From positions 19,809-83,808 of the IMG/VR virus record IMGVR_UViG_3300038393_000457: a stretch of 64,000 bases of DNA; one strand, given 5' to 3'. This document shows positions 4,768 to 44,951 of this stretch, one piece after another. Source of the stretch: a virus (Duplodnaviria > Caudoviricetes). Made by a program: the position numbers and the translations under genes. Numbering within the stretch: the first letter of the stretch is position 1; each line of letters starts with the position of its first letter. Below the pieces are notes generated by a model. It was not told the origin of the DNA, did not search any database, and saw nothing but the letters and a program-made list of their open reading frames with translations.

Positions 4768-4985
4768 TGCCTGCTGAATATAGAAATCCAGATGGTACTT
4801 GGTCGCAAGGATACTATTGCATGACTTGCGGTGAATGTTGCAACATGTACGCTACTGGTCATGGTGATGGTAAGTGTAAGCCAAATCCAAAGTTGGTTGC
4901 AGCATTAATTGAAGTAAATAAGAGAGAAAATGATTATCCAAGACACTCTGGTATGAAAAATGTTGACACTACTAGAACAAGCTAA
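4767..4985 (+). CDS. Small Cys-rich hypothetical protein
   Basis: CMTCGECC..H..C pattern; coupled start. Confidence 0.5.
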   Translation: MPAEYRNPDGTWSQGYYCMTCGECCNMYATGHGDGKCKPNPKLVAALIEVNKRENDYPRHSGMKNVDTTRTS

Positions 4986-5409
4986 TCATAGTAAAGGTAC
5001 ATATTTCGCGTTGCAGCCATCTGGGGCGACGCGAAATCGCCTGCAGGATTTGGTGTCAGAATTGAACATCGACAATGCAGTCAAACCTATGGAATATCAT
5101 TGCACGGTGATTTATTCCAAGACACCTTGCCCGCAAATGAGAAATTTCAGACCTAAACTGCCGGTTTGGGCAATGGGTGTTGAATTTCTGTTGTTCGGGG
5201 AAAACAAGAATATTTTGGTATTGAAGTTGGAGTCCATCTCTCTCCATAAGTTATATGATGATCTTCAAGTCTATAATCCATCAAGTGATTACGATCAATA
5301 CAATCCTCATATCACTCTTTCATATAATTGGGAGGAAGAACTTCCTAAATTGAAGGAGGTAATTCCAGTGTGTTTTGATACGTTCCTTTGCACTCCTTTG
5401 GAGGACTAA
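4960..5409 (+). CDS. acb1: 2H phosphoesterase, Acb1/T4 gp57B-like anti-CBASS nuclease
   Basis: Two HxT motifs (YHCTVIYS and PHITLSYN), G-Y-A N-terminus and LVLKL strand match the T4 gp57B layout; about 150 aa. Confidence 0.85.
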   Translation: MLTLLEQANHSKGTYFALQPSGATRNRLQDLVSELNIDNAVKPMEYHCTVIYSKTPCPQMRNFRPKLPVWAMGVEFLLFGENKNILVLKLESISLHKLYDDLQVYNPSSDYDQYNPHITLSYNWEEELPKLKEVIPVCFDTFLCTPLED

Positions 5410-5435
5410 GTATCCAGACTTAAGGAGTCTGGATG
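5404..5435 (+). promoter_or_regulatory. Late-promoter-like motif plus RBS-sequestering hairpin for resolvase gene
   Basis: GACTAAGTA at 5404-5412; ATCCAGACT-TAAGG-AGTCTGGAT 9-bp stem (5412-5434) covers AAGGAG and the AT of the start codon. Confidence 0.65.
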
Positions 5436-5999
5436 TCAACAAATTTACTAGTCGGAATTGATTATAGTCTTAGCTGCCCGTGCATTGGTTTTCTTGATGG
5501 AGGACAGATGCATTTTCGGTTCCTAACAGACACCAAGAAATACATCAATAAATGGAAATACAAGAACCTGATCATAGAAGGAATTGAACATAAGAATTGG
5601 AGTCATCCACTAGAACGCTACAACAATATTGCTGTTCAGATACTTGGTGACACTGATTATGAAGTCAAGACTTTAAGAAATGCCAAAAACATTAACATCG
5701 AAGATTATTCTATGGGCTCTAAGGGAAAGGTATTTGGGATTGCAGAGAATACGGCAATCCTTAAGAACCATCTTTGGTCAAAAGAAATAACATATGGAAC
5801 AATCCCACCAACTGTTGTGAAGAAATTTGCAACCACAAAGGGTAATTCCAAGAAAGAACAGATGTATGAAGCATGGTTAGATCAAGTTGGGATCGATCTA
5901 AAGAAGCTCATGGATATTGAAACTGATAAAGTAACTTCACCTTTGTCAGATTTAGTAGATGCGTTTTTCTTAGCTAAACTTGACAAGTGGCATAAGTAG
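5433..5999 (+). CDS. RuvC-like Holliday junction resolvase (phage type)
   Basis: VGIDYS, IEDY, PPTVVKKFAT-KGN--KEQM and DLVDAFFLA acidic motifs. Confidence 0.8.
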   Translation: MSTNLLVGIDYSLSCPCIGFLDGGQMHFRFLTDTKKYINKWKYKNLIIEGIEHKNWSHPLERYNNIAVQILGDTDYEVKTLRNAKNINIEDYSMGSKGKVFGIAENTAILKNHLWSKEITYGTIPPTVVKKFATTKGNSKKEQMYEAWLDQVGIDLKKLMDIETDKVTSPLSDLVDAFFLAKLDKWHK

Positions 6000-6012
6000 T
6001 ATATAAGTAAAA

Positions 6013-6061
6013 GGAGAACGACAGACGTTCTCCACAAATATAAGAAGTTAGGGGTTCTAAC
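6013..6061 (+). promoter_or_regulatory. Two-hairpin leader, copy 1 (upstream of NadM-Nudix)
   Basis: GGAGAACG-ACAGA-CGTTCTCC, 13-nt spacer, GTTAG-GGGTT-CTAAC, then G-ATG. Confidence 0.7.
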
Positions 6062-6062
6062 G

Positions 6063-7121
6063 ATGTATGAATTAGCTGTGTTTATCGGCAGATTTCAGCC
6101 GTTTCATTTAGGTCATAAGCTCGTTCTAGATAACGGCTTCAAGGTCGCCAAGAATGTCTTGGTGTTCCTCGGTTCGCATGATTCTCCTCGCACGATGGTC
6201 AATCCGTGGACGAGTGAAGAACGTGCCGGACTAATCAATTCGATCTATGCAAAGACTGAATTTGCTCATAGAATCGACTTCAAACCAATTGTAGATTTCC
6301 CATATAACGATACACTTTGGATGCGTCAAGTCCAGCAGGAAGTATATTCTCGCGGATTGACTGACGATCAGGTTTGTCTAATTGGTGAAAAGAAAGATGA
6401 AGGAACATCCTTCTATCTCAAGATGTTCCCACAATGGGATTATGTCGGTGTTCCTGATGTTCCAGACATCAATGCGACCGATATCCGTGAGTCATATTTT
6501 GAATATGAGAAGGCTCGAAATCATATTGGTTATTTCGACGGGTTTCAAAAGAATGTGCCGAAAGAAACTTTTGATTTCTTGGTTGATTTTTTCTCAGCAG
6601 AGGAAGATTATGAATATGTTAAGAACGAATTTGAATTCCAGTACCAATACGACAAAAAGTGGGAAAATTCTCCTTATCCACCGATGTTCATTACTGTTGA
6701 TTCCGTTGTTGTGCAAAGTGGACATGTGTTATTGGTCAAACGCCGTGCCCATCCTGGAAAAGGGCTTTGGGCTCTTCCAGGTGGTTACCTAAACAAAAAT
6801 GAAAAGTTGTTTGATGGGGCTATTCGTGAATTGATGGAAGAAACAAAGATCAAGGTGCCAATTGATGCACTCAAGGGATCATTCGTTGAAGTCCAAGTTT
6901 TCGATGCACCAAATAGATCAACTCGCGGCCGTATTGTAACTCATGCTCATTCCTTCAAACTGAAGGATGGCGGTAAGCTTCCCCGCATTAAAGGAAGTGA
7001 TGATGCAGAGAAAGCAAAATGGATACCTTTCTCTGATATCAAGCGTAGTGAACTTTTTGAAGACCACCACGCGATTTTAGAAACAATGATATCCAGACTT
7101 AACGGCGATAGACGCCAATAA
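6063..7121 (+). CDS. nadM: Bifunctional NMN adenylyltransferase / Nudix (ADP-ribose) hydrolase
   Basis: FIGRFQPFHLGH, NPWTSEER, Nudix box PGG-L---E------RELMEET, GSDDA-KAKW, FEDH. Confidence 0.95.
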   Translation: MYELAVFIGRFQPFHLGHKLVLDNGFKVAKNVLVFLGSHDSPRTMVNPWTSEERAGLINSIYAKTEFAHRIDFKPIVDFPYNDTLWMRQVQQEVYSRGLTDDQVCLIGEKKDEGTSFYLKMFPQWDYVGVPDVPDINATDIRESYFEYEKARNHIGYFDGFQKNVPKETFDFLVDFFSAEEDYEYVKNEFEFQYQYDKKWENSPYPPMFITVDSVVVQSGHVLLVKRRAHPGKGLWALPGGYLNKNEKLFDGAIRELMEETKIKVPIDALKGSFVEVQVFDAPNRSTRGRIVTHAHSFKLKDGGKLPRIKGSDDAEKAKWIPFSDIKRSELFEDHHAILETMISRLNGDRRQ

Positions 7122-7145
7122 TAACGAAAGGTTAGGGGTTCTAAC
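7104..7145 (+). promoter_or_regulatory. Two-hairpin leader, copy 2 (upstream of NAMPT)
   Basis: GGCG-ATAGA-CGCC, 14-nt spacer, identical GTTAGGGGTTCTAAC, then ATG. Confidence 0.7.
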
Positions 7146-8519
7146 ATGACAAATCCTATTCTAAATGTTGACAGTTACAAGCATTCTCATTTTCTACAGT
7201 ATCCACATGGCACGACCGAGGTGTATTCCTATATTGAGTCACGTGGTGGAGAATTCGGCAAGTTTGTATTCTTTGGTTTACAAGCTTATCTCAAGAAGTC
7301 TTTGAGTCGTGTTCCGACTCTTGATGAAATCGACCAGGCAGAAAAGATTGTTGTTGCCCATGGTCTACCTTTCAATCGTCAGGGGTGGGTCGATCTTCAT
7401 ATCCTCGGATATTGGCCTGTTGAAATCAAGGCACTTCCAGAAGGTATGGTTGTTCCTACACATGTGCCTTGTGTGACTATTTGCAACACCGATCCTCGCT
7501 TCTATTGGATTACTTCGTTCTTGGAAACCGCATTGCTTCGTGCTGTTTGGTATCCATCAACAGTGGCGACTATTTCATATAATGCAAAGAAGATCATTTC
7601 TAAATATTTGGAAGAAACCTGTGATGTTCCTGATTGGAAGACAAACATTCTTCCTTTCCGTCTGCATGACTTTGGTGCTCGTGGTGTAAGTTCGGAAGAG
7701 TCTGCTGCTCTTGGTGGTCTTGGTCACCTTGTGAATTTCATGGGCACAGACACCATGTCGGCGCTTATTGCGGCCATGGAATTCTACAATGCCAAGGATG
7801 TTGTTGGATATTCCATTCCTGCCGCCGAACATTCCACCATTACTTCATGGGGCGAATCTGGTGAACCTGATGCATATCAGAACATGATTACACAGTTTGG
7901 TGGTGGTCTGTATGCGGTTGTGTCCGATTCTTATGATCTTGACTTTGCGGTAAGGTCTATCTGGGGAGAAGAATTGCGGCACGATGTTCTGGATGCAAAA
8001 GGTACCTTGGTTGTTCGTCCTGATTCAGGCGATCCTGCAACGATTGTTGTCAATACCTTGAATATCCTTGGTACCAAATTTGATTATACCACAAATTCTA
8101 AGGGGTATATGGTACTTAATCCGAAAGTTCGCGTAATTCAGGGTGATGGTATCAATTTGAAGAGTATTCCTCAAATTCTAGAAGCTGTTAAGCAATCTGG
8201 ATGGTCAACAGAGAATTTGGCCATGGGTATGGGTGGAATGCTCTTGCAGGGCTGTAATCGTGACACTCTCAAGTGGGCAATGAAGGCCTCAAGTGTCACG
8301 ATCAATGGAAACGAGAAAGGTGTTAACAAGAATCCTAAGACTGATCCAGGAAAGGCTTCCAAGAAAGGTAAGTTTTCTGTGGTTGCAGAAAATGGTACTC
8401 TTGTCTGCAAGCCACGCAATGGCTTTGCTGCATGGGATACAATGCAGACAGTCTATCGTGATGGTAAGCTTTTGGTGGATTGGACGTTTGATGATGTGCG
8501 TTCTTTTGCTAATAGATGA
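7146..8519 (+). CDS. nadV: Nicotinamide phosphoribosyltransferase
   Basis: DSYKHSH, LHDFGARG, SIPAAEHS, VSDSYD, VRPDSGDP, IQGDG, MGG-LLQ-CNRDT motifs. Confidence 0.95.
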   Translation: MTNPILNVDSYKHSHFLQYPHGTTEVYSYIESRGGEFGKFVFFGLQAYLKKSLSRVPTLDEIDQAEKIVVAHGLPFNRQGWVDLHILGYWPVEIKALPEGMVVPTHVPCVTICNTDPRFYWITSFLETALLRAVWYPSTVATISYNAKKIISKYLEETCDVPDWKTNILPFRLHDFGARGVSSEESAALGGLGHLVNFMGTDTMSALIAAMEFYNAKDVVGYSIPAAEHSTITSWGESGEPDAYQNMITQFGGGLYAVVSDSYDLDFAVRSIWGEELRHDVLDAKGTLVVRPDSGDPATIVVNTLNILGTKFDYTTNSKGYMVLNPKVRVIQGDGINLKSIPQILEAVKQSGWSTENLAMGMGGMLLQGCNRDTLKWAMKASSVTINGNEKGVNKNPKTDPGKASKKGKFSVVAENGTLVCKPRNGFAAWDTMQTVYRDGKLLVDWTFDDVRSFANR

Positions 8520-8570
8520 TTGACAACACGATTAAATAAGATATGATGCTCCGGAGATAGTCTCCGGAGC
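8520..8570 (+). promoter_or_regulatory. Sigma70-like promoter followed by perfect 10-bp hairpin (probable terminator of the nad operon)
   Basis: TTGACA-N16-TATGAT; GCTCCGGAGA-TAG-TCTCCGGAGC. Confidence 0.5.
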
Positions 8571-8577
8571 ATTTATT

Positions 8578-8805
8578 ATGATTGTTGCATTTGTCCATAT
8601 CATGGAAGATGAAAGACTACCACAATTTGGGGTGCGAGATATTCAGCCTGGAAATCCTCTCTTTGATAAGATTAGACAGTGTAAGGTGAGGCAGGAAATT
8701 CAAATTAAGATCGAAAGTTTGGAATTCTTTCAAAACAATTTTATCAACCTACCGGAAGTTGATCTTCCGGCGACTGTTGAAAAATTTTTAACTATTTGGT
8801 CATAA
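8578..8805 (+). CDS. Hypothetical protein
   Basis: 75-aa ORF in operon context. Confidence 0.55.
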   Translation: MIVAFVHIMEDERLPQFGVRDIQPGNPLFDKIRQCKVRQEIQIKIESLEFFQNNFINLPEVDLPATVEKFLTIWS

Positions 8806-8806
8806 C

Positions 8807-9370
8807 ATGAGATATTATGCAGGGATAGGCTCCCGAAAAACACCAAAAGATGTTCTGTTCATCATGGAACGGATTGGTCAGAGTCTCGCCTCCAGATTTG
8901 TTCTTCGATCTGGTGGTGCCGGAGGTGCTGATACCTCCTTTGAAAGAGGGGCCAATCGAGGTCAAGGTGTCACAGAAATCTTCCTTCCATGGAAAGGTTT
9001 CAATGCGGATGACGAGGACCGTGAGTTTCTTCCGGTATCTGATTTGTTTCTTGACAATCTGCCTCAGAAAATACAATATGAGGCTGCTGAGATTGCAAAG
9101 CAGTTTCATCGCCATTGGAATGAATTGACTATCGGAGGAAAAAAGCTTCATACCAGAAATGTTTTACAAATTCTTGGTCGTGATCTAAATACCCCAAGTG
9201 AATTTGTTATCTGTTGGACAAAAGATGGTAAAGCAACCGGCGGAACCGGTCAGGCAATGCGTATTGCGAAATCTAAGGGAATTCCAATCTATAATCTAAA
9301 GAATAACGATGACAGGGATTCTTTGGTGAAGTGGTGGAATATGGAATATGGGTCTGATCCCATCGTCTGA
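8807..9370 (+). CDS. SLOG-superfamily protein (DprA/Smf-like Rossmann fold, phage type)
   Basis: YAGIGSRKTP, LRSGGAGGAD, GGTGQA motifs. Confidence 0.72.
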   Translation: MRYYAGIGSRKTPKDVLFIMERIGQSLASRFVLRSGGAGGADTSFERGANRGQGVTEIFLPWKGFNADDEDREFLPVSDLFLDNLPQKIQYEAAEIAKQFHRHWNELTIGGKKLHTRNVLQILGRDLNTPSEFVICWTKDGKATGGTGQAMRIAKSKGIPIYNLKNNDDRDSLVKWWNMEYGSDPIV

Positions 9371-9575
9371 TCTTGAAACTACTCGTTGGCCAGAAGATCA
9401 TCCAAATCTTCGTCCTGGCGGTCAACATGTCGGTAGTGGCCCTTTCGGAATCAAGGTAAAACACATTCCTTCTGGAATTGAAGCATGTGTGGATATTGGG
9501 TCTTCACAACATCGCAATAGACAGATTGCCATAGAGATGATAGAAGCAGCATTAACAAGTGAGTGGTACAGATGA
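9348..9575 (+). CDS. Minimal class I release-factor / peptidyl-tRNA hydrolase domain protein with GGQ motif
   Basis: IPSSDL...PGGQHV...VKHIPSGI...SQHRNRQIA aligns with RF-1 domain consensus PGGQHVN...HLPTGI...SQHKN. Confidence 0.75.
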   Translation: MGLIPSSDLETTRWPEDHPNLRPGGQHVGSGPFGIKVKHIPSGIEACVDIGSSQHRNRQIAIEMIEAALTSEWYR

Positions 9576-9738
9576 TTGTTTATTTCTTCACAGCCTTATG
9601 GGTATTAACTTGGGCCCATTTTTTCCATGCATCTGTCACGATACACAATTTACCAAAAGGTATTGGATATCTTGGTATGATTGTATTAATGATTATTGGC
9701 GGTTTTATCGCTAATGGTCTCTTGTCTCTTTAATTTTA

Positions 9739-10101
9739 GTGGTTAATATGATTGATATTACAGAAAAGTACGGCAAGGATGTTTTCGATCTTATTTGCAA
9801 GATTGATGATTTCATTAAGAAGGGTTTGGAACATCGTTCCTTTGGGCAAGGAGTGTATGCAAAGGATAGTGGTTTCAAGATGACAGGTATTATGGATTAT
9901 GGATCATTCTATGTCCAATTTCCTGAATCGGCTCCGGTTTCTCTTGCTGTTATCGATCTCAATTCCGGTGAATATTTCTTTGAGTCGTTTGAAATTCTTG
10001 GTAAGAAACTAAATATCTATGCTTTGGACGATTTCAATATTGAACGTGTGATCAAGCGTGCTGAGGCTGAATGGGCAATGGATTCACAGGAGAACGTTTA
10101 A
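9739..10101 (+). CDS. Hypothetical protein
   Basis: 120-aa ORF with phage-like codon use. Confidence 0.6.
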   Translation: MVNMIDITEKYGKDVFDLICKIDDFIKKGLEHRSFGQGVYAKDSGFKMTGIMDYGSFYVQFPESAPVSLAVIDLNSGEYFFESFEILGKKLNIYALDDFNIERVIKRAEAEWAMDSQENV

Positions 10102-10392
10102 TTGCGTGCGTCTTATTTGGCGGCTTTCGTTTATTGGTTGTTTAAGAAGTTTTGGTTTCCGTTATTCCGAGATACCAGACTTCTGGCAATTTTCTTATCA
10201 GAAATAGAGGTATATAGAAGTATCCATGGAACCATCAATAATGAACCAGAAGAAGAATGAATGGGAACATTGGTGTCATTGTAATGAGATGTTTATAGTC
10301 CTGGAAGTAGGACTTTCATGTGAAACGTGCCATAGAACAGAACCAGAAAAGCCTCCTTTACAAACACAAGAGACTATGATAAGGTCAGAACT

Positions 10393-10572
10393 ATGAAAAG
10401 GATCATTACGGCTATTCTTTTAGCTATTGGTTTGTCGAGTTGTGCCTATTATGGCCCGGCTCCGATTTACTCTGTGCCGGTCGCCGTATATACGCCACCG
10501 GTCGTTGTATATCACTATCCCAGTTATCCAAGGTATTATTACCACTATCGATATTGTCATCGTTGCTATTAA
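10393..10572 (+). CDS. Small Pro/Tyr-rich lipoprotein
   Basis: Hand translation MKRIITAILLAIGLSSC... with lipobox LSSC. Confidence 0.55.
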   Translation: MKRIITAILLAIGLSSCAYYGPAPIYSVPVAVYTPPVVVYHYPSYPRYYYHYRYCHRCY

Positions 10573-10583
10573 GGACGTAAATT

Positions 10584-10868
10584 ATGGATGAAGATAAGAA
10601 ACAAGATATCTTAAATCTCCTCAAGACCGGAGAGGTCAAGGTAGTTTTTAAGAAGGTTGATGGTGGTGAACGTGTAATGCGATGCACTCATGCATTGCAC
10701 CTAATTCCGGTACGAGAGGAATCTTTCCAAGATAAGGAAAGAACAGAAAGAAAGAAGAATCCGGATGTTTGTCCGGTATTCGATCTTGACAAGAATGCTT
10801 GGCGCTCTTTTCGTTGGGACTCACTTACTCGGGTTTCTGTAGAAATCCAAATGGATAAAGTAGCATGA
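10584..10868 (+). CDS. SH3/Sm-like WYL_2 (DUF2693-like) protein common in T4-like phages
   Basis: V-F-KVDG-ER-M-CT...VFDLDKNAWRSFR pattern. Confidence 0.65.
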   Translation: MDEDKKQDILNLLKTGEVKVVFKKVDGGERVMRCTHALHLIPVREESFQDKERTERKKNPDVCPVFDLDKNAWRSFRWDSLTRVSVEIQMDKVA

Positions 10869-11047
10869 ATGCTTTCATTCTGGCAATTGCCATTCTTACA
10901 GCTTCCCATGTGATTGTATATCCTGACAAGCCTGAATATCCAACTATTGAGGCTTGTCAGCAGGAGCAACTTACCTTGATTGACAAAAATCGTGACCTGT
11001 ATTATGAAGGTCGCTTGATTTTGGTGTGTCAACCTAAGTAAAATTCT

Positions 11048-11267
11048 GGTGGATGGCACCGGCGCGCGGCGGGGACTAAGGTATGAATTGGTAACATCTT
11101 ACATGGAATAAATTTGCTTCTATGGTGTAACGGCAGCACGGTGTCCTTATAAGACATAAGCGGTAGATGACCGCGCGGAACAGGTTCGAATCCTGTTAGA
11201 AGTACCAATCCTGGAGATCGGCTAGATTAGCTGGAACGGCACGGTTCGAAACCGTGATCCACTACCA
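11048..11267 (+). ncRNA. Interrupted type II tRNA-like element whose anticodon loop contains a complete tRNA-Ile
   Basis: GGTGGAT (11048) pairs with ATCCACT-ACCA (11257-11267); T arm CACGG-TTCGAAA-CCGTG; V arm CGGCTA-GAT-TAGCTG; GGGA-CT ... AA-TCCT anticodon-stem halves flank a 130-nt insert. Confidence 0.55.
11116..11207 (+). tRNA. tRNA-Ile(UAU) with long variable arm
   Basis: GCTTCTA/TAGAAGT-ACCA; GTGTC-CTTATAA-GACAT; V arm GCGGT-AGATG-ACCGC. Confidence 0.8.
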
Positions 11268-11281
11268 AAATTGAGGATACA

Positions 11282-11566
11282 ATGAATATATATTTGGTTT
11301 GGGGTAGATATTGCGTTCAATATGAAGGATGTGAGGAATGGTTTGTCTGCGCCTATTTCTCTGAGAAAGATGCTGAGAAGCATGTAGAATATGCAAATAA
11401 ATGGGTATCTGAACATATTGACTCTAGGGTAAAGGATTTCCCTAATCCTTATGATTCATATTGCACCGAATATTTTTGGCGTAGTGAGACCGAGTATCAT
11501 TACAGCCCCATCCTCATAAAAAATTATTTTAAACCAATGTTGGAGCTTGACATTGAGTGTATCTAA
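11282..11566 (+). CDS. Hypothetical protein
   Basis: 94-aa ORF with GAGG RBS. Confidence 0.6.
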   Translation: MNIYLVWGRYCVQYEGCEEWFVCAYFSEKDAEKHVEYANKWVSEHIDSRVKDFPNPYDSYCTEYFWRSETEYHYSPILIKNYFKPMLELDIECI

Positions 11567-12053
11567 AGTGCGAATTGGTGATGAATCCAAAGGAAAACCA
11601 GAATTTGAAGGACTATTTGGTCCGGGAATTTATGGGTTCTTTGGTGAATATAGATGGCTCTCCAATTTTTATGGATTTTCCATTGAATATAATGGAAACA
11701 AATTTCGATCAACAGAACATGCTTATCAAGCTGCAAAATGCCTTGATCCGAACGATATCAATTTGTTTTCTGGATGCACAATGGCAGAAGCCAAGTTATA
11801 TGGTCGCAAAGTTGCTAGGCGTCCTGACTGGGAACAGGCCAAAGATGGTGTTATGCTTGACGTACTCCGGATTAAGTATATGAATCCGGAATTGAAACAG
11901 AAGTTAATCGACACCAATGGCCTTTATCTTGAAGAGACAAATTGGTGGGGAGATCAATATTGGGGTGTTTGTGAAGGCAAAGGTCTAAACAAACTTGGTA
12001 AACTGATTATGCGAGTACGAGATGAAATCGATTCTGGACAATTACACGGATGA
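11547..12053 (+). CDS. NADAR family protein (YbiA / T4 gp30.3-like)
   Basis: WLSNFY, STEHAYQAAK, LEETNWWGDQYWGV, GLNKLGKLIMRVR motifs. Confidence 0.9.
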   Translation: MTLSVSKVRIGDESKGKPEFEGLFGPGIYGFFGEYRWLSNFYGFSIEYNGNKFRSTEHAYQAAKCLDPNDINLFSGCTMAEAKLYGRKVARRPDWEQAKDGVMLDVLRIKYMNPELKQKLIDTNGLYLEETNWWGDQYWGVCEGKGLNKLGKLIMRVRDEIDSGQLHG

Positions 12054-13402: not shown

Positions 13403-13990
13403 GTGCAAATTCTTTCACTTGACAAGTCTGGGTATCCTAGAGGGTTTATTACGATCCAAAATGCAATCGAAATGATTGCGAAGGATAAAATCCTTTGGAG
13501 TCTTGGTAACCCAATTGCAACTTATCGTGGTGGTTATAACAATGATGGTGTGCGTTCCGTAATCGAAACGCCACCTATCATTGCTATCACCGGAACAGAG
13601 TTTGCAAAACAAAAGCGTTTTCCTAAAGTTATCCTGACGAACAATTCGCTTTTTAGTAGGGATCGTCATATTTGCGCTTATTGTGGTGGAAAATTCATGC
13701 CACGAAAGCTATCACGTGATCATGTAATACCTGTTTCTCGTGGTGGTCCGAATACCTGGAAGAATGTGGTGACTGCATGTATCCCATGTAACACCAAGAA
13801 GGATAATCGGACCCCAGAAGAAGCTGGAATGAAACTTCTGTATGTTCCTTATGAGCCCTCTCATGCGGAACATCTAATATTGAAGAATCGCAACATCACA
13901 GAAGATCAAATGGATTATCTATCAAACCATGTGTCGCCGGAGTTTCTCCGGCGCATGACGGATGTAGAATTATTTGGTGAGGATAAATAA
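13403..13990 (+). CDS. HNH endonuclease (McrA-like HNH_5 type)
   Basis: [10 protein letters not shown]...[38 protein letters not shown]. Confidence 0.9.
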   Translation: [195 protein letters not shown]

Positions 13991-17646: not shown

Positions 17647-17721
17647 ACGGGAGTAGCTCAGTGAAAGAGCGTCTGGCATCAGGTCAGAAGGTCGGTGGTT
17701 CAAGTCCATCCTTCCGTGCCA
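17647..17721 (+). tRNA. Degenerate tRNA with UCA at the anticodon position (probable pseudo-tRNA, Pro-like body)
   Basis: ACGGGAG/CTTCCGT-GCCA; TCTGG-CATCAGG-TCAGA; A33, and D loop lacks GG. Confidence 0.55.
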
Positions 17722-19572: not shown

Positions 19573-19629
19573 ACGGTGGATTTCCCTAAGTAAGCATAGG
19601 TAAGACTTGCTTAAAGGAAATCCACCGTG
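19573..19629 (+). promoter_or_regulatory. RBS/start-sequestering hairpin of GIY-YIG gene
   Basis: ACGGTGGATTTCC (19573-19585) / GGAAATCCACCGT (19616-19628) covers the RBS and GTG start; late-like CCTAAGTA at 19585. Confidence 0.7.
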
Positions 19630-20256
19630 TTCTATACGATTTATAAGATAACTAATAAAATTAATGGAAAATATTACATTGGTAAACATCAAACTGAAAA
19701 TTTAGATGATGGTTATTTTGGTTCTGGTAAATTAATCAAAAAAGCCATTAAAAAATATGGCATAGAAAATTTTATTAAAGAAATCTTGTTCGTGTATGAT
19801 AATGAACAAGAAATGAATGAGAAAGAAAAGGAATTAGTAACCTTAAGAGAAGATAGTTATAACCTTTGTCCTGGTGGACAAGGTGGATTTGGTTATATTA
19901 ATAAAATAATATCGAAAGATGATAGATCAAAATATGGTAAAATTGGCGGCATCAAAATATCCACAGAAATTCAAACAAAAGGATTGTTCTTCAAAAATCT
20001 TACCAACAAATTTTCTAAAGGAAATCCATACCGATTTACTAAAGAAAATAATTACATGGCAGGTAAACAACATTCCTTAGAAGTGAAGAAAAAAATTGGT
20101 GAAGCGAATTCTTTACATCAGTCTGGTAAAAAGAATTCTCAATATGGTACTTGTTGGATATATCATCCACAACTAGGTAATAAGAAGATTGACAAAGAAG
20201 AACTAAATAAATATATTGAATTGGGCTATATTAAAGGCCGTCAAAAGTGGTATTAG
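19627..20256 (+). CDS. GIY-YIG homing endonuclease, Seg-like, with NUMOD3-like segment
   Basis: IYKITNKINGKYYIGKH...GYFGSG; GKQHSLEVKKKIGE; KNSQYGTCWI. Confidence 0.9.
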   Translation: MFYTIYKITNKINGKYYIGKHQTENLDDGYFGSGKLIKKAIKKYGIENFIKEILFVYDNEQEMNEKEKELVTLREDSYNLCPGGQGGFGYINKIISKDDRSKYGKIGGIKISTEIQTKGLFFKNLTNKFSKGNPYRFTKENNYMAGKQHSLEVKKKIGEANSLHQSGKKNSQYGTCWIYHPQLGNKKIDKEELNKYIELGYIKGRQKWY

Positions 20257-23961: not shown

Positions 23962-24039
23962 GGTGCCGTGGACTGAATGGATTTAGGCACGAGACTGCAA
24001 ATCTCGTTTATGTGGGTTCAAGTCCCACCGGCTCCTCCA
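23962..24039 (+). tRNA. tRNA-Cys(GCA)
   Basis: CGAGA-CTGCAAA-TCTCG; U73-CCA. Confidence 0.9.
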
Positions 24040-24060
24040 ATTTATATAATAAGGAAGATA

Positions 24061-24705
24061 ATGAAAGTAGCGTTGAAGGCTATTACCAAGCCAGTTGATG
24101 ATACCATGACAGTGGAAGACTTCGTTGCATATGTTGCACGAGTCTCCAATCCAGATAATCAAAACAACAAACTCACTTCCAAGAAGCTTCTAAAATATCT
24201 TCGGAAAAATAAGCATTTTTCCCCATTTGAGATGGTTAGTTTGGTAATAGAAGTCAATACTACTCGTGATATTGGTCGTCAGATTTTGCGTCATAGAAGT
24301 TGCCATTTCCAGGAATTTTCCCAGCGATATGCTGATCCAACTAAAATGGAATTTGTTTATCGAGAAGCCCGATTACAAGATAATAAAAATCGTCAAAATA
24401 GCATTGAGATTGATGACCCAGAATTGCAAAAAGAATGGGAAGCAATCCAATATGATATAATCTCTCGCGCAAAGGCAGGTTATCAATGGGCTGTTTCTAA
24501 AGGTATTGCCAAGGAACAAGCTAGAGTTGTATTACCGGAGGGATTAACAGCATCAAAAATGTATATTAGTGGCACTCTAAGAGATTGGTATTTTTATTGT
24601 CAACTTCGTATGTCCAACGGTACCCAGAAAGAACACATGGAAATTGCAAAAGCATGTTGGGATATCATCATTCAACAATTCCCTTCTTTGGCTGAAACAG
24701 AATGA
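24061..24705 (+). CDS. thyX: FAD-dependent thymidylate synthase
   Basis: H-SPFEM, QILRHRS-HFQEFSQRY signature, EQARVVLP, TQKEH. Confidence 0.95.
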   Translation: MKVALKAITKPVDDTMTVEDFVAYVARVSNPDNQNNKLTSKKLLKYLRKNKHFSPFEMVSLVIEVNTTRDIGRQILRHRSCHFQEFSQRYADPTKMEFVYREARLQDNKNRQNSIEIDDPELQKEWEAIQYDIISRAKAGYQWAVSKGIAKEQARVVLPEGLTASKMYISGTLRDWYFYCQLRMSNGTQKEHMEIAKACWDIIIQQFPSLAETE

Positions 24706-25133
24706 AGATTGATCCAGAACGTCTAAATAGTATGTTCCAGTTTGCTGGAATTGATAAAACCAAATTATATGATGCTCTCAGGACTATGGGCATCAAGCAA
24801 CTCAAGAAAGAAATGAGAGAGGGTTGGAGTCCTGACAATCCGACAAGGTGTTTCTGCTATGTGGTTTCGGAATTTGTTTACTGGTATGTCGCCCCTAACG
24901 GCTCAATTCCTTACTCTGTTGGCGTTCCTGGTGATCCTTGGATTCATCGGTATCTTCGGTGGCCTGATGGTACCGTTGTCGATCTAACAGCGGAACAATT
25001 TGACAACCATGAATTGGTAGATTATAATCTTGGTAAAAGGAGAATGTTTCTCCAAACTGGCTGTAAAGGCCCAAGCAAGCGCGCAAGAATGCTTGCAGAA
25101 TTGATGGGATATGACACTATTATCGCAAAGTGA
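24702..25133 (+). CDS. Hypothetical protein
   Basis: CYVVSE...H-YL....VDLTAEQF pattern; coupled to thyX. Confidence 0.65.
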   Translation: MKIDPERLNSMFQFAGIDKTKLYDALRTMGIKQLKKEMREGWSPDNPTRCFCYVVSEFVYWYVAPNGSIPYSVGVPGDPWIHRYLRWPDGTVVDLTAEQFDNHELVDYNLGKRRMFLQTGCKGPSKRARMLAELMGYDTIIAK

Positions 25134-25923
25134 AGAAGCTTCCGAATTTTTGAAATCTATTGGTAATTGGAGAGACCCTAATCCTGATCCAGTCATTACC
25201 GTACATGAAGGCATCCATGTTGTTCGGGATGATCTTCTAAATGCCGGCACCAAAGTAAGAGCAATTGACTATATCATTGGTCATATGAATCATGAAGTCA
25301 ACGAATGGGTAATGGGATCATGCCCTGCCATTGGTTATGCTCAAATTTCACTTCCAATAGTTTGTGCAAAACATGGAAAAAAGGCCGTAATCTTCGCTGC
25401 CAAAAGAGGGATGAATAATCTCCACCCATATCAGAAACGTGGAATTGAATTGGGTGTTAAATACTATTGGGTGGACAACGGAATGTTGACAGTTACCCAG
25501 AAGCGTGCTAGAGATTATGTCAATGCAAGTCCTGAGACGCGCAAGACTCTTCCGATGGGTCTTGAACATCCAACAGTATTTGGGTCGTTCATCAAAGTAG
25601 CGAGAAGTCTGCCAATCAAACCAGATTATGTCTGGTCGGCAGGGTCTTCTGGAACAGTCAATCGTTCTTTGCAGATGGCTTGGCCTGATGCTGAAGTTCA
25701 TGTTGTTTCAGTTGGACATAAAATGTCTGAACGGGAAATTGGAAGAGCGATTCATCATCGTTCATCCTATGCTTATACAGCAAGCGTAAAGGAAGTAGAT
25801 AAACCACCTTTTCCGTCTGTTCCCGAATATGACGCTAAAGTATGGCCTGTATTGAGAGAGTGGAAGTTGACAAACAAGATACCTGATAGTAAAATTGTGC
25901 TTTTCTGGAACGTAGGCGGATAA
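25111..25923 (+). CDS. PLP-dependent fold-type II enzyme (PALP / ACC deaminase-like)
   Basis: VVRDDLLNAGTKVR (Schiff-base Lys position), AGSSGT phosphate loop, YDAKVW, LFWNVG. Confidence 0.72.
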   Translation: MTLLSQSEEASEFLKSIGNWRDPNPDPVITVHEGIHVVRDDLLNAGTKVRAIDYIIGHMNHEVNEWVMGSCPAIGYAQISLPIVCAKHGKKAVIFAAKRGMNNLHPYQKRGIELGVKYYWVDNGMLTVTQKRARDYVNASPETRKTLPMGLEHPTVFGSFIKVARSLPIKPDYVWSAGSSGTVNRSLQMAWPDAEVHVVSVGHKMSEREIGRAIHHRSSYAYTASVKEVDKPPFPSVPEYDAKVWPVLREWKLTNKIPDSKIVLFWNVGG

Positions 25924-25954
25924 GCAAAAGACAACCCTTAAAAAGGAATCTCAA

Positions 25955-26125
25955 ATGGTAGACGTAGTAAAGACTGCTCAAGATGCGGCTAACACCGTAA
26001 ATCAGACTGCACAGACTGTAGAAACCAAGGTAGAGGTTTCCGAAAGCTGGGTGAAACAGCACCCTCTTATCACTCTAGCTATTGGTGCTGGTCTAGTTCT
26101 ATTGGTTCTAGCTCTGGTTCTTTAA
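25955..26125 (+). CDS. Tail-anchored small membrane protein (ElaB/YqjD-like topology)
   Basis: Hand translation ...WVKQHPLITLAIGAGLVLLVLALVL*; AAGGA RBS. Confidence 0.55.
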   Translation: MVDVVKTAQDAANTVNQTAQTVETKVEVSESWVKQHPLITLAIGAGLVLLVLALVL

Positions 26126-26137
26126 TCAATTTTTTAT

Positions 26138-26222
26138 GCGGGTATGGCGGAATTGGTAGACGTCCCGGCTTCAAACTCCGGCGAGGAAACTCATGGGGGT
26201 TCAAGTCCCTCTACCCGTACCA
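26138..26222 (+). tRNA. tRNA-Leu(CAA)
   Basis: GCGGGTA/TACCCGT-ACCA; GGCGGAATTGGTAGAC D arm; loop TTCAAAC; V arm GAG-GAAA-CTC. Confidence 0.88.
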
Positions 26223-26241
26223 GTTTTGTATAAAGGTAATT

Positions 26242-26412
26242 ATGAGTAATTTGTGGAAGACAGATACCGAATATAAAGTCGGTGATAGAGTTATGGTCCT
26301 TGGTAAGGAATATGAATGTACCAAGGATCATAAATCTAACGTCTTCGCAGACCAATTCTTTGGAAAGAACACCTCTCATAAGATAGAGGAAAAGGTCTGG
26401 AAGAAGGTTTAA
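26242..26412 (+). CDS. Stand-alone carbohydrate-binding-module-like protein (CBM5/12 pattern)
   Basis: Hand translation MSNLWKTDTEYKVGDRVMVLGKEYECTKDHKS...VWKKV*. Confidence 0.55.
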   Translation: MSNLWKTDTEYKVGDRVMVLGKEYECTKDHKSNVFADQFFGKNTSHKIEEKVWKKV

Positions 26413-26421
26413 AAATATTTT

Positions 26422-26498
26422 GCTACCGTAGCCCAACGGCAGGAGGCACGAGTCTTAGGAACTCGCCAGTGTCAGTTCGAATCTGACCGGTAGTACCA
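26422..26498 (+). tRNA. tRNA-Leu(UAG) with short variable loop
   Basis: GCTACCG/CGGTAGT-ACCA; CGAGT-CTTAGGA-ACTCG; 5-nt variable loop. Confidence 0.88.
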
Positions 26499-26511
26499 AT
26501 TTTGGTTTATT

Positions 26512-26745
26512 ATGCAATCTTTGATTGAAAGCTTCTTCAAGAATTTTAAATCAGCCAATATCTTATTGGAATGCATTCTTGACGGAACACATGTGGGATA
26601 TTGTGTTATTCACATCCCCAAGACAAAGAGACCAGATGATGGTGTGTCGTATAAACCCATCTGGCACGGTGAATGTAAGTATTGCAACAAACCAATCCAA
26701 TGTAATGAATTCGGAATGTGGGAATTAGAGAAGGATAAAAAATGA
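26512..26745 (+). CDS. Small Cys/His-containing hypothetical protein
   Basis: C..HIP...WHGECKYC pattern. Confidence 0.5.
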   Translation: MQSLIESFFKNFKSANILLECILDGTHVGYCVIHIPKTKRPDDGVSYKPIWHGECKYCNKPIQCNEFGMWELEKDKK

Positions 26746-27047
26746 AAGTGAATGATAATGTTGGTTTCCGTCCAATTGGAAACCAAGTATTGATTAGAGC
26801 AGAAGCAAATGCTTCGAAGAGTGCCGGTGGAATTTTAATTCCAGATAGCGCACAAGGTAGACCGACTGAAGGTGTTGTATTGGCAGTTGGTCAAGGTTCA
26901 CGAAACGACAAGGGTGAATTGATCCCTCTTGACGTTAAGCCTGGCGATAAGATCATGTTTGGTAAGTTTACTGGCACCGAGCTTTCCTTGAATGGAAATC
27001 GCTTGCTAATTATGAAAGAAACTGATATATTGGGTATTCTTAGTTAA
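26742..27047 (+). CDS. groES: Co-chaperonin GroES
   Basis: RPIGNQVLI, SAGGILIPDSA, G-VLAVG-G, VKPGDKIMFGKFTGTE, LLIMKETDILGI. Confidence 0.95.
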   Translation: MKVNDNVGFRPIGNQVLIRAEANASKSAGGILIPDSAQGRPTEGVVLAVGQGSRNDKGELIPLDVKPGDKIMFGKFTGTELSLNGNRLLIMKETDILGILS

Positions 27048-27125
27048 AGAAAAGTGGTATAGCGGAGAAATCGTAGCCACCACTCCTTCGACCAAAGGCG
27101 CTACATAAAGGTCGAAACAATTCAT

Positions 27126-27208
27126 GCACACGTCCCATAGCGGCCATTGGAGCAGACCCTTAATCTGTCGCGAAAGCATCGTCGGTTCGAGTCCGACCGT
27201 GTGTACCA
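27126..27208 (+). tRNA. tRNA-Lys(CUU) with long variable arm and C33
   Basis: GCACACG/CGTGTGT-ACCA; GCAGA-CCCTTAA-TCTGT; V arm GC-GAAA-GC. Confidence 0.82.
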
Positions 27209-27216
27209 ATTCTAAC

Positions 27217-27293
27217 GTCCTTGTGGTATAAAGGAATAGTGCCCCTCTTTCCTAAAGAGGTGTATGCAGGTTCGAATCCTGTCAAGGGCACCA
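27217..27293 (+). tRNA. tRNA-Arg(CCU)
   Basis: GTCCTTG/CAAGGGC-ACCA; CCTCT-TTCCTAA-AGAGG. Confidence 0.88.
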
Positions 27294-27308
27294 AAAAGGT
27301 ATTTTATT

Positions 27309-27698
27309 ATGAGCAAGATGAATAGACTGGGTAATGCCCACAACAAATATCAGAACTTCGATATGTATCCACGCGCACTATCCGTATGTTCTGCGGGTAT
27401 GCTTCGCTCTCCAACAGCAGCTTGGGTTCTCTCAAATGACCCTTTCAATTTCAACACGCGCGCTGTTGGTGCCAGTGACGAATATGCATTGATGGAAGTT
27501 GATGATGTTCATTTGGAATGGGCTGATTACGTCTTCTTTATGGAGGAGAAACATCACCGAGTTGTTAGTGAGAGATTTCCTAGCGTTCTTTCTGCCAAGA
27601 AATTTTTTGTATTGGATGTGCCGGACGATTTCCCGTATCGCCATCCTGAATTGGTGAAGATGATCACCGATAAGGTTAAGGGTGTTTTAGGTATCTAA
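27309..27698 (+). CDS. Low-molecular-weight protein tyrosine phosphatase-like protein
   Basis: P-loop VCSAGMLRSPTA (CX5R), EWAD-VFFME, LDVPDDF. Confidence 0.8.
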   Translation: MSKMNRLGNAHNKYQNFDMYPRALSVCSAGMLRSPTAAWVLSNDPFNFNTRAVGASDEYALMEVDDVHLEWADYVFFMEEKHHRVVSERFPSVLSAKKFFVLDVPDDFPYRHPELVKMITDKVKGVLGI

Positions 27699-30243: not shown

Positions 30244-30289
30244 TCCGCGACAGACAAGCTTTTAACGTATTATTTATGGTTTCAGATAA

Positions 30290-44941: not shown

Positions 44942-44951
44942 GGAAAACCTC

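What the first reader, a model, noticed from the sequence alone, without database searches (positions are those of the whole stretch)
9348..9575. 75-aa stand-alone GGQ release-factor domain
Seen: the catalytic GGQ loop with flanking RF-1 domain motifs (IPSSDL, PGGQHV, HIPSGI, SQHRN). There is no codon-recognition domain and no long basic C-terminal tail of the kind ArfB/YaeJ uses to enter the mRNA channel. Inference: a minimal ribosome-rescue factor for stalls caused by tRNA or mRNA cleavage, a partner of one of the tRNA-like RNAs, or a dominant inhibitor of host termination.
Basis: partly seen in the sequence, partly recalled or inferred. Interest (0 to 1): 0.75.

Follow-up and report, generated by a model that had tools for sequence, protein, structure and literature searches.

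The report
Phage bare GGQ release-factor domain
A large, tRNA-rich phage carries a well-conserved 75-residue gene that encodes only the peptide-releasing (Gly-Gly-Gln) domain of a bacterial release factor; it belongs to a widespread phage family that databases label but that no paper I could find has studied, and here it sits among known counter-defence genes.

Summary
ORF 9348-9575 (+) encodes 75 residues that align without gaps to domain 3 of RF1/RF2, with GGQ intact at 9417-9425. A profile of 50 relatives hits RF2 at E 1e-20 and RF1 at 1e-18; ArfB matches only in part, at 1e-5. The AlphaFold model has the strand-loop-strand-strand-helix core, and its best structural matches are RF1/RF2 domain 3.

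The gene is real. dN/dS is about 0.10 against a 75%-identical relative, and it overlaps both neighbouring genes.

It is not RF1/RF2, ArfB or PrfH. It has no codon-reading domain, no ArfB insert or basic tail, and no RtcB neighbour.

It belongs to a large, mostly viral family of about 70-residue proteins. This scan has met that family in at least 43 other genomes. GenBank and PHROGs label members as release factors, but I found no functional study.

Here the gene lies in a counter-defence island: Acb1, NMNAT-Nudix, NAMPT, SLOG, this gene, NADAR.

Best guess (about 0.45, inferred): it triggers peptidyl-tRNA hydrolysis, independent of codon, on ribosomes or 50S subunits whose A site stays empty. 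Main rival: a non-catalytic binder or decoy. The suggested link to tRNA-like RNAs has no support.

The parts
9348..9575 (+). Gene for the 75-aa stand-alone RF1/RF2-type domain 3 (GGQ) protein
   Evidence: ORF. Pfam, PHROG and NCBIfam hits. Family profile vs PDB: RF2 1e-20. AF2 model pLDDT 80.7, with RF2/RF1 domain 3 as top Foldseek hits. dN/dS about 0.10 vs L053.
9417..9425 (+). Codons of the catalytic Gly24-Gly25-Gln26
   Evidence: Read directly from the sequence. Invariant in alignments A1 and A3.
9333..9337 (+). GGTGG, a possible Shine-Dalgarno element about 10 nt before the ATG. It lies inside the 3' end of the upstream gene.
   Evidence: Sequence; inference only.
8807..9370 (+). Upstream gene: SLOG / DprA-like protein (187 aa). 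Its last 23 nt overlap the start of the GGQ gene.
   Evidence: phrog_768 E 2e-60. Weak Pfam matches to DNA_processg_A and LDcluster4. The same adjacency is seen in L053, where the SLOG homologue is 54% identical, and an upstream gene likewise overlaps the GGQ gene in the contig of P0002 (homology of that gene not tested).
9572..9733 (+). Downstream 53-aa hydrophobic ORF whose ATG overlaps the TGA of the GGQ gene (ATGA)
   Evidence: Sequence. Called as a gene on the identical contig L054. Absent from L053.
9739..10101 (+). Conserved downstream gene of unknown function (117-120 aa)
   Evidence: 46% identical homologue in the same position in L053. No Pfam, PHROG or PADLOC match.
8520..8573 (+). 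Best sigma-70-like promoter match of the region (TTGACA-16-TATGAT, 11 of 12), overlapping a 13-bp hairpin just after the NAMPT stop. It may be the start of the transcription unit ORF75-SLOG-GGQ-ORF53-ORF120.
   Evidence: Pattern scan only. The total number of promoter-like sites in the region is not above the shuffled expectation.
4960..8519 (+). Upstream counter-defence genes: Acb1 (4960-5409), NMNAT-Nudix (6063-7121), NAMPT (7146-8519)
   Evidence: Pfam on the window. Precomputed Pfam on contig L054, which is 100% identical to the window over 16.9 kb.
10584..12053 (+). Downstream accessory genes: WYL_2 protein (10584-10868), tRNA-Ile(UAU) (11116-11207), NADAR (11547-12053)

Best explanation
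Firm part. 9348-9575 is a real, selected phage gene. Its 75-residue product is only the peptidyl-hydrolase domain (domain 3, the GGQ domain) of an RF1/RF2-type bacterial release factor. It is one member of a large, mainly phage-borne family of about 70-residue proteins.

Inferred part. The protein is made early from an accessory (counter-defence) operon. Like domain 3 of RF1/RF2, it docks in the A-site side of the peptidyl-transferase centre of the 50S subunit and places its Gly-Gly-Gln loop so that the peptidyl-tRNA ester is hydrolysed. It has no decoding-centre or mRNA-channel sensor, so its action would not depend on a stop codon or on an empty mRNA channel. Selectivity would be only kinetic: it wins where the A site stays empty for long.

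Such targets could be ribosomes stalled after tRNA or mRNA cleavage by host defences or toxins, ribosomes stranded by phage-induced host mRNA decay, or split 50S subunits still carrying peptidyl-tRNA. The released ribosomes become available for phage translation.
For: Shown:
- Gapless homology to RF2/RF1 domain 3 (E 1e-20 and 1e-18 at profile level; NCBIfam prfA/prfB/prfH).
- Predicted strand-loop-strand-strand-helix fold with a low-confidence GGQ loop; the best Foldseek hits are RF2/RF1 on the ribosome.
- GGQ is invariant in the 50 nearest relatives. Family-wide, the other release-factor motifs are also kept: His39 99%, Pro41 91%, Gly43 93%, Arg52 80%, Ser53 93%, Gln54 87%, Asn57 82%. Selection therefore keeps the catalytic loop and its scaffold.
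- The two glycines (90% and 95%) are kept more strictly than Gln (87%, Met in 7%). From my own knowledge of RF mutagenesis, the glycines are the residues least tolerant of change.
- Strong purifying selection: pN 0.15 against pS 0.67, dN/dS about 0.10, which is tighter than both neighbouring genes.
- No conserved partner gene across 47 viral loci. The gene travels alone between very different phage settings: the region between the replication genes and the late antiterminator in lambda-like phages, the moron site beside the integrase, early regions of Otagovirus and Heverleevirus, and this large lytic phage. That pattern fits a single-component factor acting on a universal host target.
- Here it is flanked by Acb1, NMNAT-Nudix plus NAMPT, and NADAR, and it precedes an array of 27 tRNA genes.

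Inferred: ribosome binding, catalysis, the kind of stall and the benefit to the phage.
Against: - In ArfB/YaeJ the GGQ domain alone is not enough. Removing the last 10 residues of the tail abolishes activity, and single tail substitutions lower ribosome binding (PMC3950681).
- This protein has no such anchor and is not basic (pI 6.0; family median 6.8).
- Some family members lack the Gln (Met in about 7% of representatives; other replacements; RRW forms noted earlier in this scan). The scaffold can therefore be kept for something other than canonical catalysis.
- An unregulated release factor could be harmful to phage translation too.
- No RNA-repair or rescue partners (RtcB, Pth, CCA-adding enzyme, tmRNA) are present in the 83.8 kb held, though the contig is only about 47% of the genome.
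- The neighbourhood argument is guilt by association.
Confidence: 0.45

Rival explanations
1. A non-catalytic binder or decoy. The mini-domain occupies something that normally recognises RF domain 3 and so modulates termination or read-through instead of releasing peptides. Candidate targets are the 50S A site and peptidyl-transferase centre, the RF glutamine methyltransferase PrmC, or domains 2/4 of host release factors.
For: - Relatives keep the fold but replace Gln or the whole loop: Met at the Gln position in 7% of representatives, plus other replacements, and RRW forms in earlier notes of this scan.
- The protein is acidic to neutral, with no RNA-anchoring tail.
- Tail-less ArfB is inactive (PMC3950681).
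- The window holds a tRNA with a UCA (opal-reading) anticodon at 17647-17721, and one relative locus has a CUA-anticodon tRNA about 860 nt downstream (L027). A link to stop-codon competition is therefore conceivable.
Against: - In this gene's own clade and its 50 nearest relatives GGQ is invariant, and GGQHV is well conserved. A pure plug would not need that.
- I found no evidence that the phage uses TGA as a sense codon: the frames that lengthen under code 4 have no homologues.
- A domain-3-only protein cannot compete at the decoding centre.
- No test of PrmC binding was made.
Confidence: 0.25
2. One half of a two-component factor. A second protein supplies ribosome recognition, as ArfA does for RF2 or MTRES1 for MTRFR/C12orf65. 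The partner could be phage-encoded (for example the overlapping SLOG gene or the conserved downstream 120-aa gene) or a host protein.
For: - The order NAMPT-SLOG-GGQ-ORF120 is conserved in L053, and the contig of P0002 has the same three-gene layout around its GGQ gene (homology of its flanking genes not tested); both contigs show overlapping start and stop codons, as the window does.
- Pseudomonas phage PHB09 has a SLOG homologue 1.9 kb upstream of its RF-1-domain gene.
- The family profile also matches C12orf65 (E 7e-10), and C12orf65 works with a partner on split large subunits (my own knowledge).
Against: - Outside this lineage none of the neighbours recurs next to mini-GGQ genes in 47 viral loci.
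- No informative domain fusions: only extensions with no Pfam match and one DUF551.
- The shared gene order can be explained by common descent of three closely related phages.
Confidence: 0.15
3. A reused scaffold with a role unrelated to the ribosome, for example binding another RNA or a host protein.
For: RF-like proteins have been co-opted before; one example, from my own knowledge, is the plastid RF2-like protein PrfB3, which acts on mRNA stability. No direct evidence here ties the protein to ribosomes.
Against: Retention of GGQ, HxP(S/T)G and RSQHxN, the motifs shared with working release factors, is hard to explain if the ribosomal target were lost.
Confidence: 0.1
4. A decaying gene fragment or a chance ORF.
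For: It is short, and the single-sequence Pfam score is below the gathering cut-off.
Against: - dN/dS about 0.10.
- About 180 clusters of relatives at 50% identity, most of them of this size among the 150 listed.
- The identical gene occurs on 12 contigs, drawn from at least three samples.
- The model is confidently folded.
Confidence: 0.02

Closest known systems
[quoted passage not shown]
   Same: Colinear, gapless alignment from the strand before the GGQ loop to the first half of helix alpha7 (E. coli RF1 about 217-278; profile E 1e-18 to 1e-20). GGQHV, HxP(S/T)G and (R)SQHxN are kept. Same predicted fold.
   Different: Only about 70 residues. Domains 1, 2 and 4, the PxT/SPF tripeptide and the rest of alpha7 are absent. 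Family-specific features are Trp-Pro before the loop, Gly instead of Asn after GGQHV, and a short conserved C-terminal end with an aromatic and a basic residue. Encoded by phages.
ArfB (YaeJ) / ICT1 codon-independent rescue factors
   Same: A GGQ domain without a codon-reading domain. Expected to act independently of a stop codon.
   Different: Lacks the inserted helix (alpha-i) that marks the ArfB/ICT1 GGQ domain, and lacks the linker and basic C-terminal helix that ArfB needs for ribosome binding and activity (PMC3950681). The profile matches ArfB only over the first 30 or so positions, at E 1e-5.
PrfH (RF-H), the RtcB-linked rescue factor for damaged ribosomes
   Same: Similar level of sequence match in the GGQ domain (E 1.6e-16 at profile level; TIGR03072 is the best single-sequence NCBIfam hit). 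Proposed role in conflicts that damage the translation machinery.
   Different: PrfH keeps a domain 2/4-like recognition module (about 200 aa) and is paired with RtcB. Neither is present here.
MTRFR (C12orf65), the mitochondrial GGQ protein acting on split large subunits with MTRES1
   Same: A small GGQ protein without codon recognition. The family profile matches it (E 7e-10). It offers a precedent for action on 50S-peptidyl-tRNA (my own knowledge).
   Different: MTRFR has a C-terminal extension and a dedicated partner. No equivalent was found here.
Database-labelled phage proteins: phrog_20323 'RF-1 domain peptide chain release factor', phrog_35727; Agrobacterium phage OLIVR5 gp157 (65 aa); Otagovirus proteins such as phiPsa397 gp006 and PHB09 gp177
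   Same: Same kind of protein: a phage-encoded short RF-1 domain in early or accessory regions. ESM Atlas clusters of 70-81 aa, mostly viral.
   Different: Only 32-46% identical over part of the length. The Otagovirus proteins are longer (130-158 aa). None has a described function in the papers I could search.

Membership tests
RF-1 / bacterial release-factor peptidyl-hydrolase domain (PF00472) | Significant sequence match to the domain model | tested here: met
   The single sequence scores E 1.2e-6 but 28.8 bits, below the cut-off of 35. The family profile matches RF2/RF1 at 1e-20 and 1e-18. Relatives exceed the cut-off.
RF-1 / bacterial release-factor peptidyl-hydrolase domain (PF00472) | Gly-Gly-Gln loop between the first two strands | tested here: met
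   G24-G25-Q26 at 9417-9425. Invariant in A1 and A3.
RF-1 / bacterial release-factor peptidyl-hydrolase domain (PF00472) | Three-stranded sheet packed on a helix (domain 3 fold) | tested here: met
   AF2 model: pLDDT 80.7, strands at 9-14, 34-39 and 44-48, helix 54-70. The top 40-plus Foldseek hits are RF2/RF1/PrfH/C12orf65, with TM about 0.6. This is a prediction, not a solved structure.
RF-1 / bacterial release-factor peptidyl-hydrolase domain (PF00472) | Ribosome-dependent peptidyl-tRNA hydrolysis | not testable with these tools
   Needs biochemistry.
Class I release factors RF1/RF2 | Codon-recognition superdomain (PCRF, domains 2/4, PxT or SPF) and domain 1 | tested here: not met
   The ORF is 75 aa. 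There is no PF03462 match in the 83.8 kb contig. NCBIfam scores are 27-30 bits against cut-offs of 370-423.
ArfB/YaeJ-ICT1 | Inserted helix alpha-i within the GGQ domain | tested here: not met
   Gapless alignment to RF1/RF2 across that region. ArfB matches only profile positions 4-32. Topology of YaeJ taken from PMC3950681.
ArfB/YaeJ-ICT1 | Linker plus basic C-terminal helix that enters the mRNA channel | tested here: not met
   The protein ends at residue 75, five residues after the domain helix. pI 6.0.
PrfH-RtcB system | Domain 2/4-like module and an adjacent RtcB ligase | tested here: not met
   No such module in the ORF. No RtcB in the contig. The contig is about 47% complete, so absence from the whole genome is not shown.
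Phage mini RF-1 domain family (phrog_20323 / phrog_35727 and metagenomic relatives) | Phage-encoded protein of about 65-80 aa made of the RF-1 core only, matching the family models | tested here: met
   phrog_35727 E 1.2e-6 and phrog_20323 E 1.4e-5. 183 clusters at E <= 1e-3, most of the 150 listed 65-95 aa long. 47 viral loci. Atlas clusters 69-100% viral among members with known taxonomy.

The most novel reading that the evidence does not exclude
The bare GGQ domain is a sensor-less release factor used by phages as a counter-defence or take-over tool. Because it needs neither a stop codon nor an empty mRNA channel, it can discharge ribosomes stalled on intact mRNA. Such stalls arise, for example, after anticodon nucleases or other tRNA- and mRNA-targeting immunity, or after host mRNA decay, and no known bacterial factor releases this class of stall directly. 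This would explain why the gene sits with Acb1, the NAD-rebuilding pair and NADAR next to a large tRNA array.
Probability: 0.2. Interest if true: 0.8.

Novelty: new variant of a known kind. Interest (0 to 1): 0.5.

Why it matters
Every characterised GGQ factor (RF1/RF2, ArfB/ICT1, PrfH, MTRFR) couples the catalytic domain to a module that tells it which ribosome to act on. Several hundred phage lineages keep the catalytic domain alone under purifying selection.

- If it is active, it shows that the domain can find the peptidyl-transferase centre unaided, and it would define a new, minimal route of ribosome release used in phage-host conflict.
- If it is inactive, it is a natural mimic aimed at the termination machinery.

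Either answer is directly testable with a 75-residue protein and standard translation assays. Cultured relatives exist for genetics: Pseudomonas syringae Otagovirus phages and Agrobacterium phage OLIVR5.

The family is already labelled in databases and has been met repeatedly in this scan. This window therefore adds one member and a new context, not a new kind.

Tried and rejected
- Split release factor: no PCRF domain elsewhere in the contig, and only one RF-1 match in it.
- RNA-repair or rescue toolkit: no RtcB, Pth, CCA-adding enzyme or tmRNA in the 83.8 kb.
- TGA recoding served by the UCA tRNA: treating TGA as sense lengthens many frames, but the lengthened frames have no PHROG homologues beyond what the standard frames give. 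Not supported.
- Conserved partner gene: neighbours were clustered over 35 loci and searched with tblastn using the window's neighbours. Only the same-lineage contig L053 shares them, plus a distant SLOG in PHB09.
- Informative domain fusions in longer relatives: none, only one DUF551.
- PADLOC: no match for the GGQ protein; SLOG matches ShosA only weakly, E 0.0075.
- Nucleotide-level relatives among deposited phages: none by megablast.
- The giant top hits of the representative search were set aside. P0012 (1103 aa, 10 stretches), the one I read, is a low-complexity repeat protein and not a homologue; P0009 (2709 aa, 17 stretches) and P0024 (2675 aa, 9 stretches) show the same many-stretch pattern but I did not read their sequences.
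- I did not run a complex prediction. No partner is claimed, and a PrmC-RF pairing would pass merely by likeness to the solved RF1-PrmC structure.
- Literature searches for a functional study of phage GGQ mini-proteins found none. The survey of release-factor diversity, PMC6514570, does not mention them.
Full report
**1. The observation**

The window has an ATG-to-TGA ORF at 9348-9575 on the + strand that encodes 75 residues. The Gly-Gly-Gln codons are GGC GGT CAA at 9417-9425.

Taken alone, the sequence matches Pfam RF-1 (PF00472) at E 1.2e-6. At 28.8 bits it is under the curated cut-off of 35. It also matches the NCBIfam models for PrfH, RF2 and RF1 at E 2.5e-7 to 1.9e-6, over prfA positions 235-281, and PDB sequences of PrfH, RF1 and RF2 at about 5e-4.

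At family level the homology is beyond doubt. A profile of 50 relatives (alignment A3) matches RF2 at 1.3e-20, RF1 at 1.3e-18, PrfH at 1.6e-16 and C12orf65 at 7e-10. ArfB/YaeJ matches only over the first 30 or so positions, at about 1e-5. The alignment to RF1/RF2 is gapless, from the strand before the GGQ loop to the helix after SQHxN.

**2. Fold**

An AlphaFold2 model built on eight close relatives has mean pLDDT 80.7 and pTM 0.69. It has strands at 9-14, 34-39 and 44-48 and a helix at 54-70. Confidence is lower (62) over residues 21-30, the GGQ loop. That loop is disordered in free release factors and in free YaeJ (PMC3950681).

Foldseek against the PDB returns RF2 and RF1, free and on the ribosome, then C12orf65 and PrfH, as essentially all of the first 48 ranks. 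TM is about 0.6, normalised to the query. E-values of 2e-3 and weaker are expected for so short a query.

The protein is therefore the core of domain 3 and nothing else. It stops five residues after the helix. It has no basic tail (pI 6.0; family median 6.8). It lacks the inserted helix that marks the ArfB/ICT1 GGQ domain. No codon-recognition (PCRF) domain is encoded anywhere in the 83.8 kb held for this phage, and there is only one RF-1 match in it.

**3. Is it a real gene?**

Yes, on several counts.
- The closest relative with DNA in hand (L053, 75% protein identity) differs at 67% of synonymous sites but only 15% of non-synonymous sites. That gives dN/dS of about 0.10, with dS near saturation. 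The two flanking genes give 0.24 and 0.13.
- The ATG lies 23 nt inside the 3' end of the upstream gene, and the TGA overlaps the ATG of the next gene (ATGA). Comparable overlaps with the upstream gene (4 and 8 nt) are seen in the contigs of P0003 and P0002.
- The identical protein is on 12 contigs, drawn from at least three samples (two sequencing runs and one JGI metagenome are named). One of them (L054) is 100% identical to the window over 16.9 kb.
- The best sigma-70-like promoter match of the region (11 of 12) lies at 8520-8547, right after the NAMPT stop. This suggests a unit ORF75-SLOG-GGQ-ORF53-ORF120, but it is a pattern match only.

**4. The family**

An exhaustive HMMER search of 1.84 billion cluster representatives finds 183 clusters at E <= 1e-3. 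Most of the 150 listed are 65-95 residues long. The giant top hits were set aside: P0012, the one I read, is a low-complexity repeat protein; P0009 and P0024 show the same many-stretch pattern but were not read.

In 121 representatives of 55-100 residues the conserved columns are the release-factor ones:

| Position | Conservation |
|---|---|
| Gly24 | 90% |
| Gly25 | 95% |
| Gln26 | 87% (Met 7%) |
| His27 | 61% |
| Val28 | 79% |
| His39 | 99% |
| Pro41 | 91% |
| Gly43 | 93% |
| Arg52 | 80% |
| Ser53 | 93% |
| Gln54 | 87% |
| Asn57 | 82% |
| Ala61 | 86% |

Family-specific traits are an aromatic-Pro pair before the loop, Gly instead of the release factors' Asn after GGQHV, and a short C-terminal end with an aromatic and a basic residue.

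GGQ is invariant in the 50 nearest relatives. Some more distant members have GGM or other replacements. Earlier notes of this scan describe RRW and GGM forms in other phages.

The family is overwhelmingly viral:
- 47 IMG/VR loci.
- ESM Atlas clusters of 70-81 residues that are 69-100% viral among members with known taxonomy.
- Copies in genomes of Rhizobiales, Sphingopyxis, Devosia, Rhizobium and Rhodopseudomonas that are 46-55% identical to the query and have the same short size; they are probably in prophages, which I did not check.
- Deposited phages carry labelled members: 'RF-1 domain peptide chain release factor' in Agrobacterium phage OLIVR5, and 'peptide chain release factor 1' in Pseudomonas syringae Otagovirus phages. 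PHROGs has phrog_20323 for them.

I found no paper that studies them. The survey of release-factor diversity by Burroughs and Aravind does not mention them (PMC6514570).

**5. Surroundings here**

The contig is an IMG/VR viral record of 83.8 kb, estimated 47% complete. The window holds 27 tRNA genes and the first 19.8 kb hold four more. Its class II ribonucleotide reductase is closest to those of phages of marine and soil Alphaproteobacteria. Together with the hosts of the genomic relatives, this points to an alphaproteobacterial host. That is an inference.

The gene sits in a run of + strand accessory genes:

| Coordinates | Gene |
|---|---|
| 4960-5409 | Acb1 |
| 6063-7121 | NMNAT-Nudix |
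| 7146-8519 | NAMPT |
| 8807-9370 | SLOG/DprA-like protein (phrog_768) |
| 9348-9575 | GGQ gene |
| 9572-9733 | 53-aa hydrophobic ORF |
| 9739-10101 | conserved 120-aa protein |
| 10584-10868 | WYL_2 protein |
| 11547-12053 | NADAR |

From my own knowledge, Acb1, the NAMPT plus NMNAT pair and NADAR are established or strongly indicated counter-defence functions. They act against cyclic-nucleotide signalling, NAD depletion and DarT-type ADP-ribosylation respectively. So the gene lies inside a counter-defence island that leads into the tRNA array. No RtcB, Pth, CCA-adding enzyme or tmRNA is present in the part of the genome held.

**6. Surroundings elsewhere**

- The order NAMPT-SLOG-GGQ-ORF120 is kept in L053, and the contig of P0002 has the same three-gene layout around its GGQ gene, though I could not test the homology of its flanking genes. 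These are the same lineage, so this may be plain common descent.
- In a group of high-GC lambda-like contigs the gene lies after the replication genes, which are preceded by RusA, and before the Q-like antiterminator. In six of these loci a tRNA-Met lies 0.7-1.7 kb downstream, and in L027 a CUA-anticodon tRNA does.
- In marine temperate phages it sits at the end of the late region, near the integrase, a typical moron site.
- In Otagovirus and Heverleevirus it is among small early genes.
- No neighbour recurs across these settings, and longer relatives show no informative fusion.

The gene behaves as a mobile, self-sufficient accessory gene.

**7. How it most likely works**

Three things are shown:
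- The catalytic loop and the scaffold motifs that release factors share are under selection.
- No decoding or mRNA-channel module exists.
- No conserved partner gene exists.

What follows is inferred. The protein docks where domain 3 of RF1/RF2 docks, at the A-site side of the peptidyl-transferase centre. It then triggers hydrolysis of the peptidyl-tRNA without reading a codon. With no sensor, its only selectivity would be kinetic, for ribosomes or split 50S subunits whose A site stays vacant.

This would let it discharge stalls on intact mRNA. Examples are stalls after tRNA cleavage or depletion and the mass of stranded ribosomes after mRNA cleavage. It would return ribosomes to the phage.

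The main objection is experimental. ArfB loses all detectable activity when its last ten residues are removed, and single tail substitutions lower ribosome binding (PMC3950681). A bare GGQ domain would therefore need higher intrinsic affinity, high concentration, a 50S substrate or a host partner. I put this reading at about 0.45.

**8. Rivals**

- Non-catalytic binder or decoy (0.25). It would plug the peptidyl-transferase centre, compete for the RF methyltransferase PrmC, or mimic release factors. Support comes from family members without the Gln, the acidic charge, and the suppressor-like tRNAs near some members. The strict GGQ conservation in this clade argues against it.
- Two-component factor with a phage or host partner (0.15). 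Support comes from the overlapping, syntenic SLOG and ORF120 genes and the MTRFR-MTRES1 precedent. The lack of any recurrent neighbour argues against it.
- A role unrelated to the ribosome (0.10).
- A dead gene (0.02), contradicted by selection.
There is no tmRNA, and the family thrives in phages with few or no tRNAs nearby.

**9. Novelty and verdict**

The protein is a member of the RF-1 domain superfamily. It is not RF1/RF2, ArfB or PrfH, because the defining features of each were tested and not met. It is a new member of a phage family that databases already label, and that this scan has met in at least 43 other genomes (similar verdicts).

Measured against characterised systems it is a new variant of the release/rescue-factor kind: the catalytic domain with no targeting module. 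What this window adds is a GGQ-intact copy under strong purifying selection, embedded in a recognisable counter-defence island next to a large tRNA array. The function remains unproven. The decisive experiments are simple and are listed above.

Noticed in passing
window 17647-17721 (+): tRNA with anticodon UCA, which would read the UGA stop, called 'SeC' by ARAGORN and scored 50.9 bits by Rfam. By my reading the anticodon loop is CAUCAGG, so A stands where the near-universal U33 should be. I found no homology support for TGA being a sense codon in this phage.
   Followed up: partly
window 11116-34615 and L058 55-1337: 31 tRNA genes in the contig (27 in the window). Several are unusually long for their type, for example Ile-UAU 92 nt, Arg-ACG 95 nt and Phe-GAA 98 nt. 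9 of the 27 ARAGORN calls do not reach Rfam's tRNA gathering score. Introns or degenerate copies are possible.
   Followed up: no
window 13403-13990 and 19627-20256: HNH and GIY-YIG/NUMOD3 homing-endonuclease-like genes interspersed in the tRNA array.
   Followed up: no
window 8807-9370: The SLOG/DprA-like protein (phrog_768, E 2e-60) that overlaps the GGQ gene gives a weak match to ShosA, the DprA-like component of the Shosta defence system (PADLOC E 0.0075, 13.6 bits). It might be a phage mimic of that protein. A 37%-identical homologue lies in the same early region as the RF-1-domain gene of Pseudomonas phage PHB09.
   Followed up: partly
window 4960-12053: Dense counter-defence island: Acb1, NMNAT-Nudix, NAMPT, SLOG, WYL_2, NADAR and DUF4031, with several small unknown genes between them that are candidates for further anti-defence functions.
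   Followed up: partly
window 38000-64000: Few long ORFs under the standard code, on either strand. Reading TGA as sense more than doubles the total length of ORFs of 150 aa or more across the whole window, and several of the newly long frames lie here (for example 44585-47275, 896 aa), but they have no PHROG match. Many small genes, or something else.
   Followed up: partly
window 23977-34043: ThyX (23977-24705), GroES/Cpn10 (26742-27047) and a sugar-nucleotide modification cluster: dehydratase/epimerases, a C-methyltransferase and a glycosyltransferase (29194-34043).
   Followed up: no
L010, L014, L015, L017, L018, L025 (tRNA-Met) and L027 (tRNA with CUA anticodon): In lambda-like relatives the mini-GGQ gene lies between the replication genes (preceded by RusA) and the Q-like antiterminator, with a single tRNA gene 0.7-1.7 kb downstream. 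In L027 the tRNA about 860 nt downstream of the GGQ gene has an amber-reading anticodon, and a second tRNA (Thr) follows.
   Followed up: partly
L033, L034, L042, L046 (viral contigs): Intermediate truncated release factors of 122-139 aa that keep domain 3 plus the C-terminal part of domain 4. L033 has GGR instead of GGQ. Phages thus carry a graded series from full-length release factors (L030, L031, L036, L037, L044) down to the 70-aa core.
   Followed up: no
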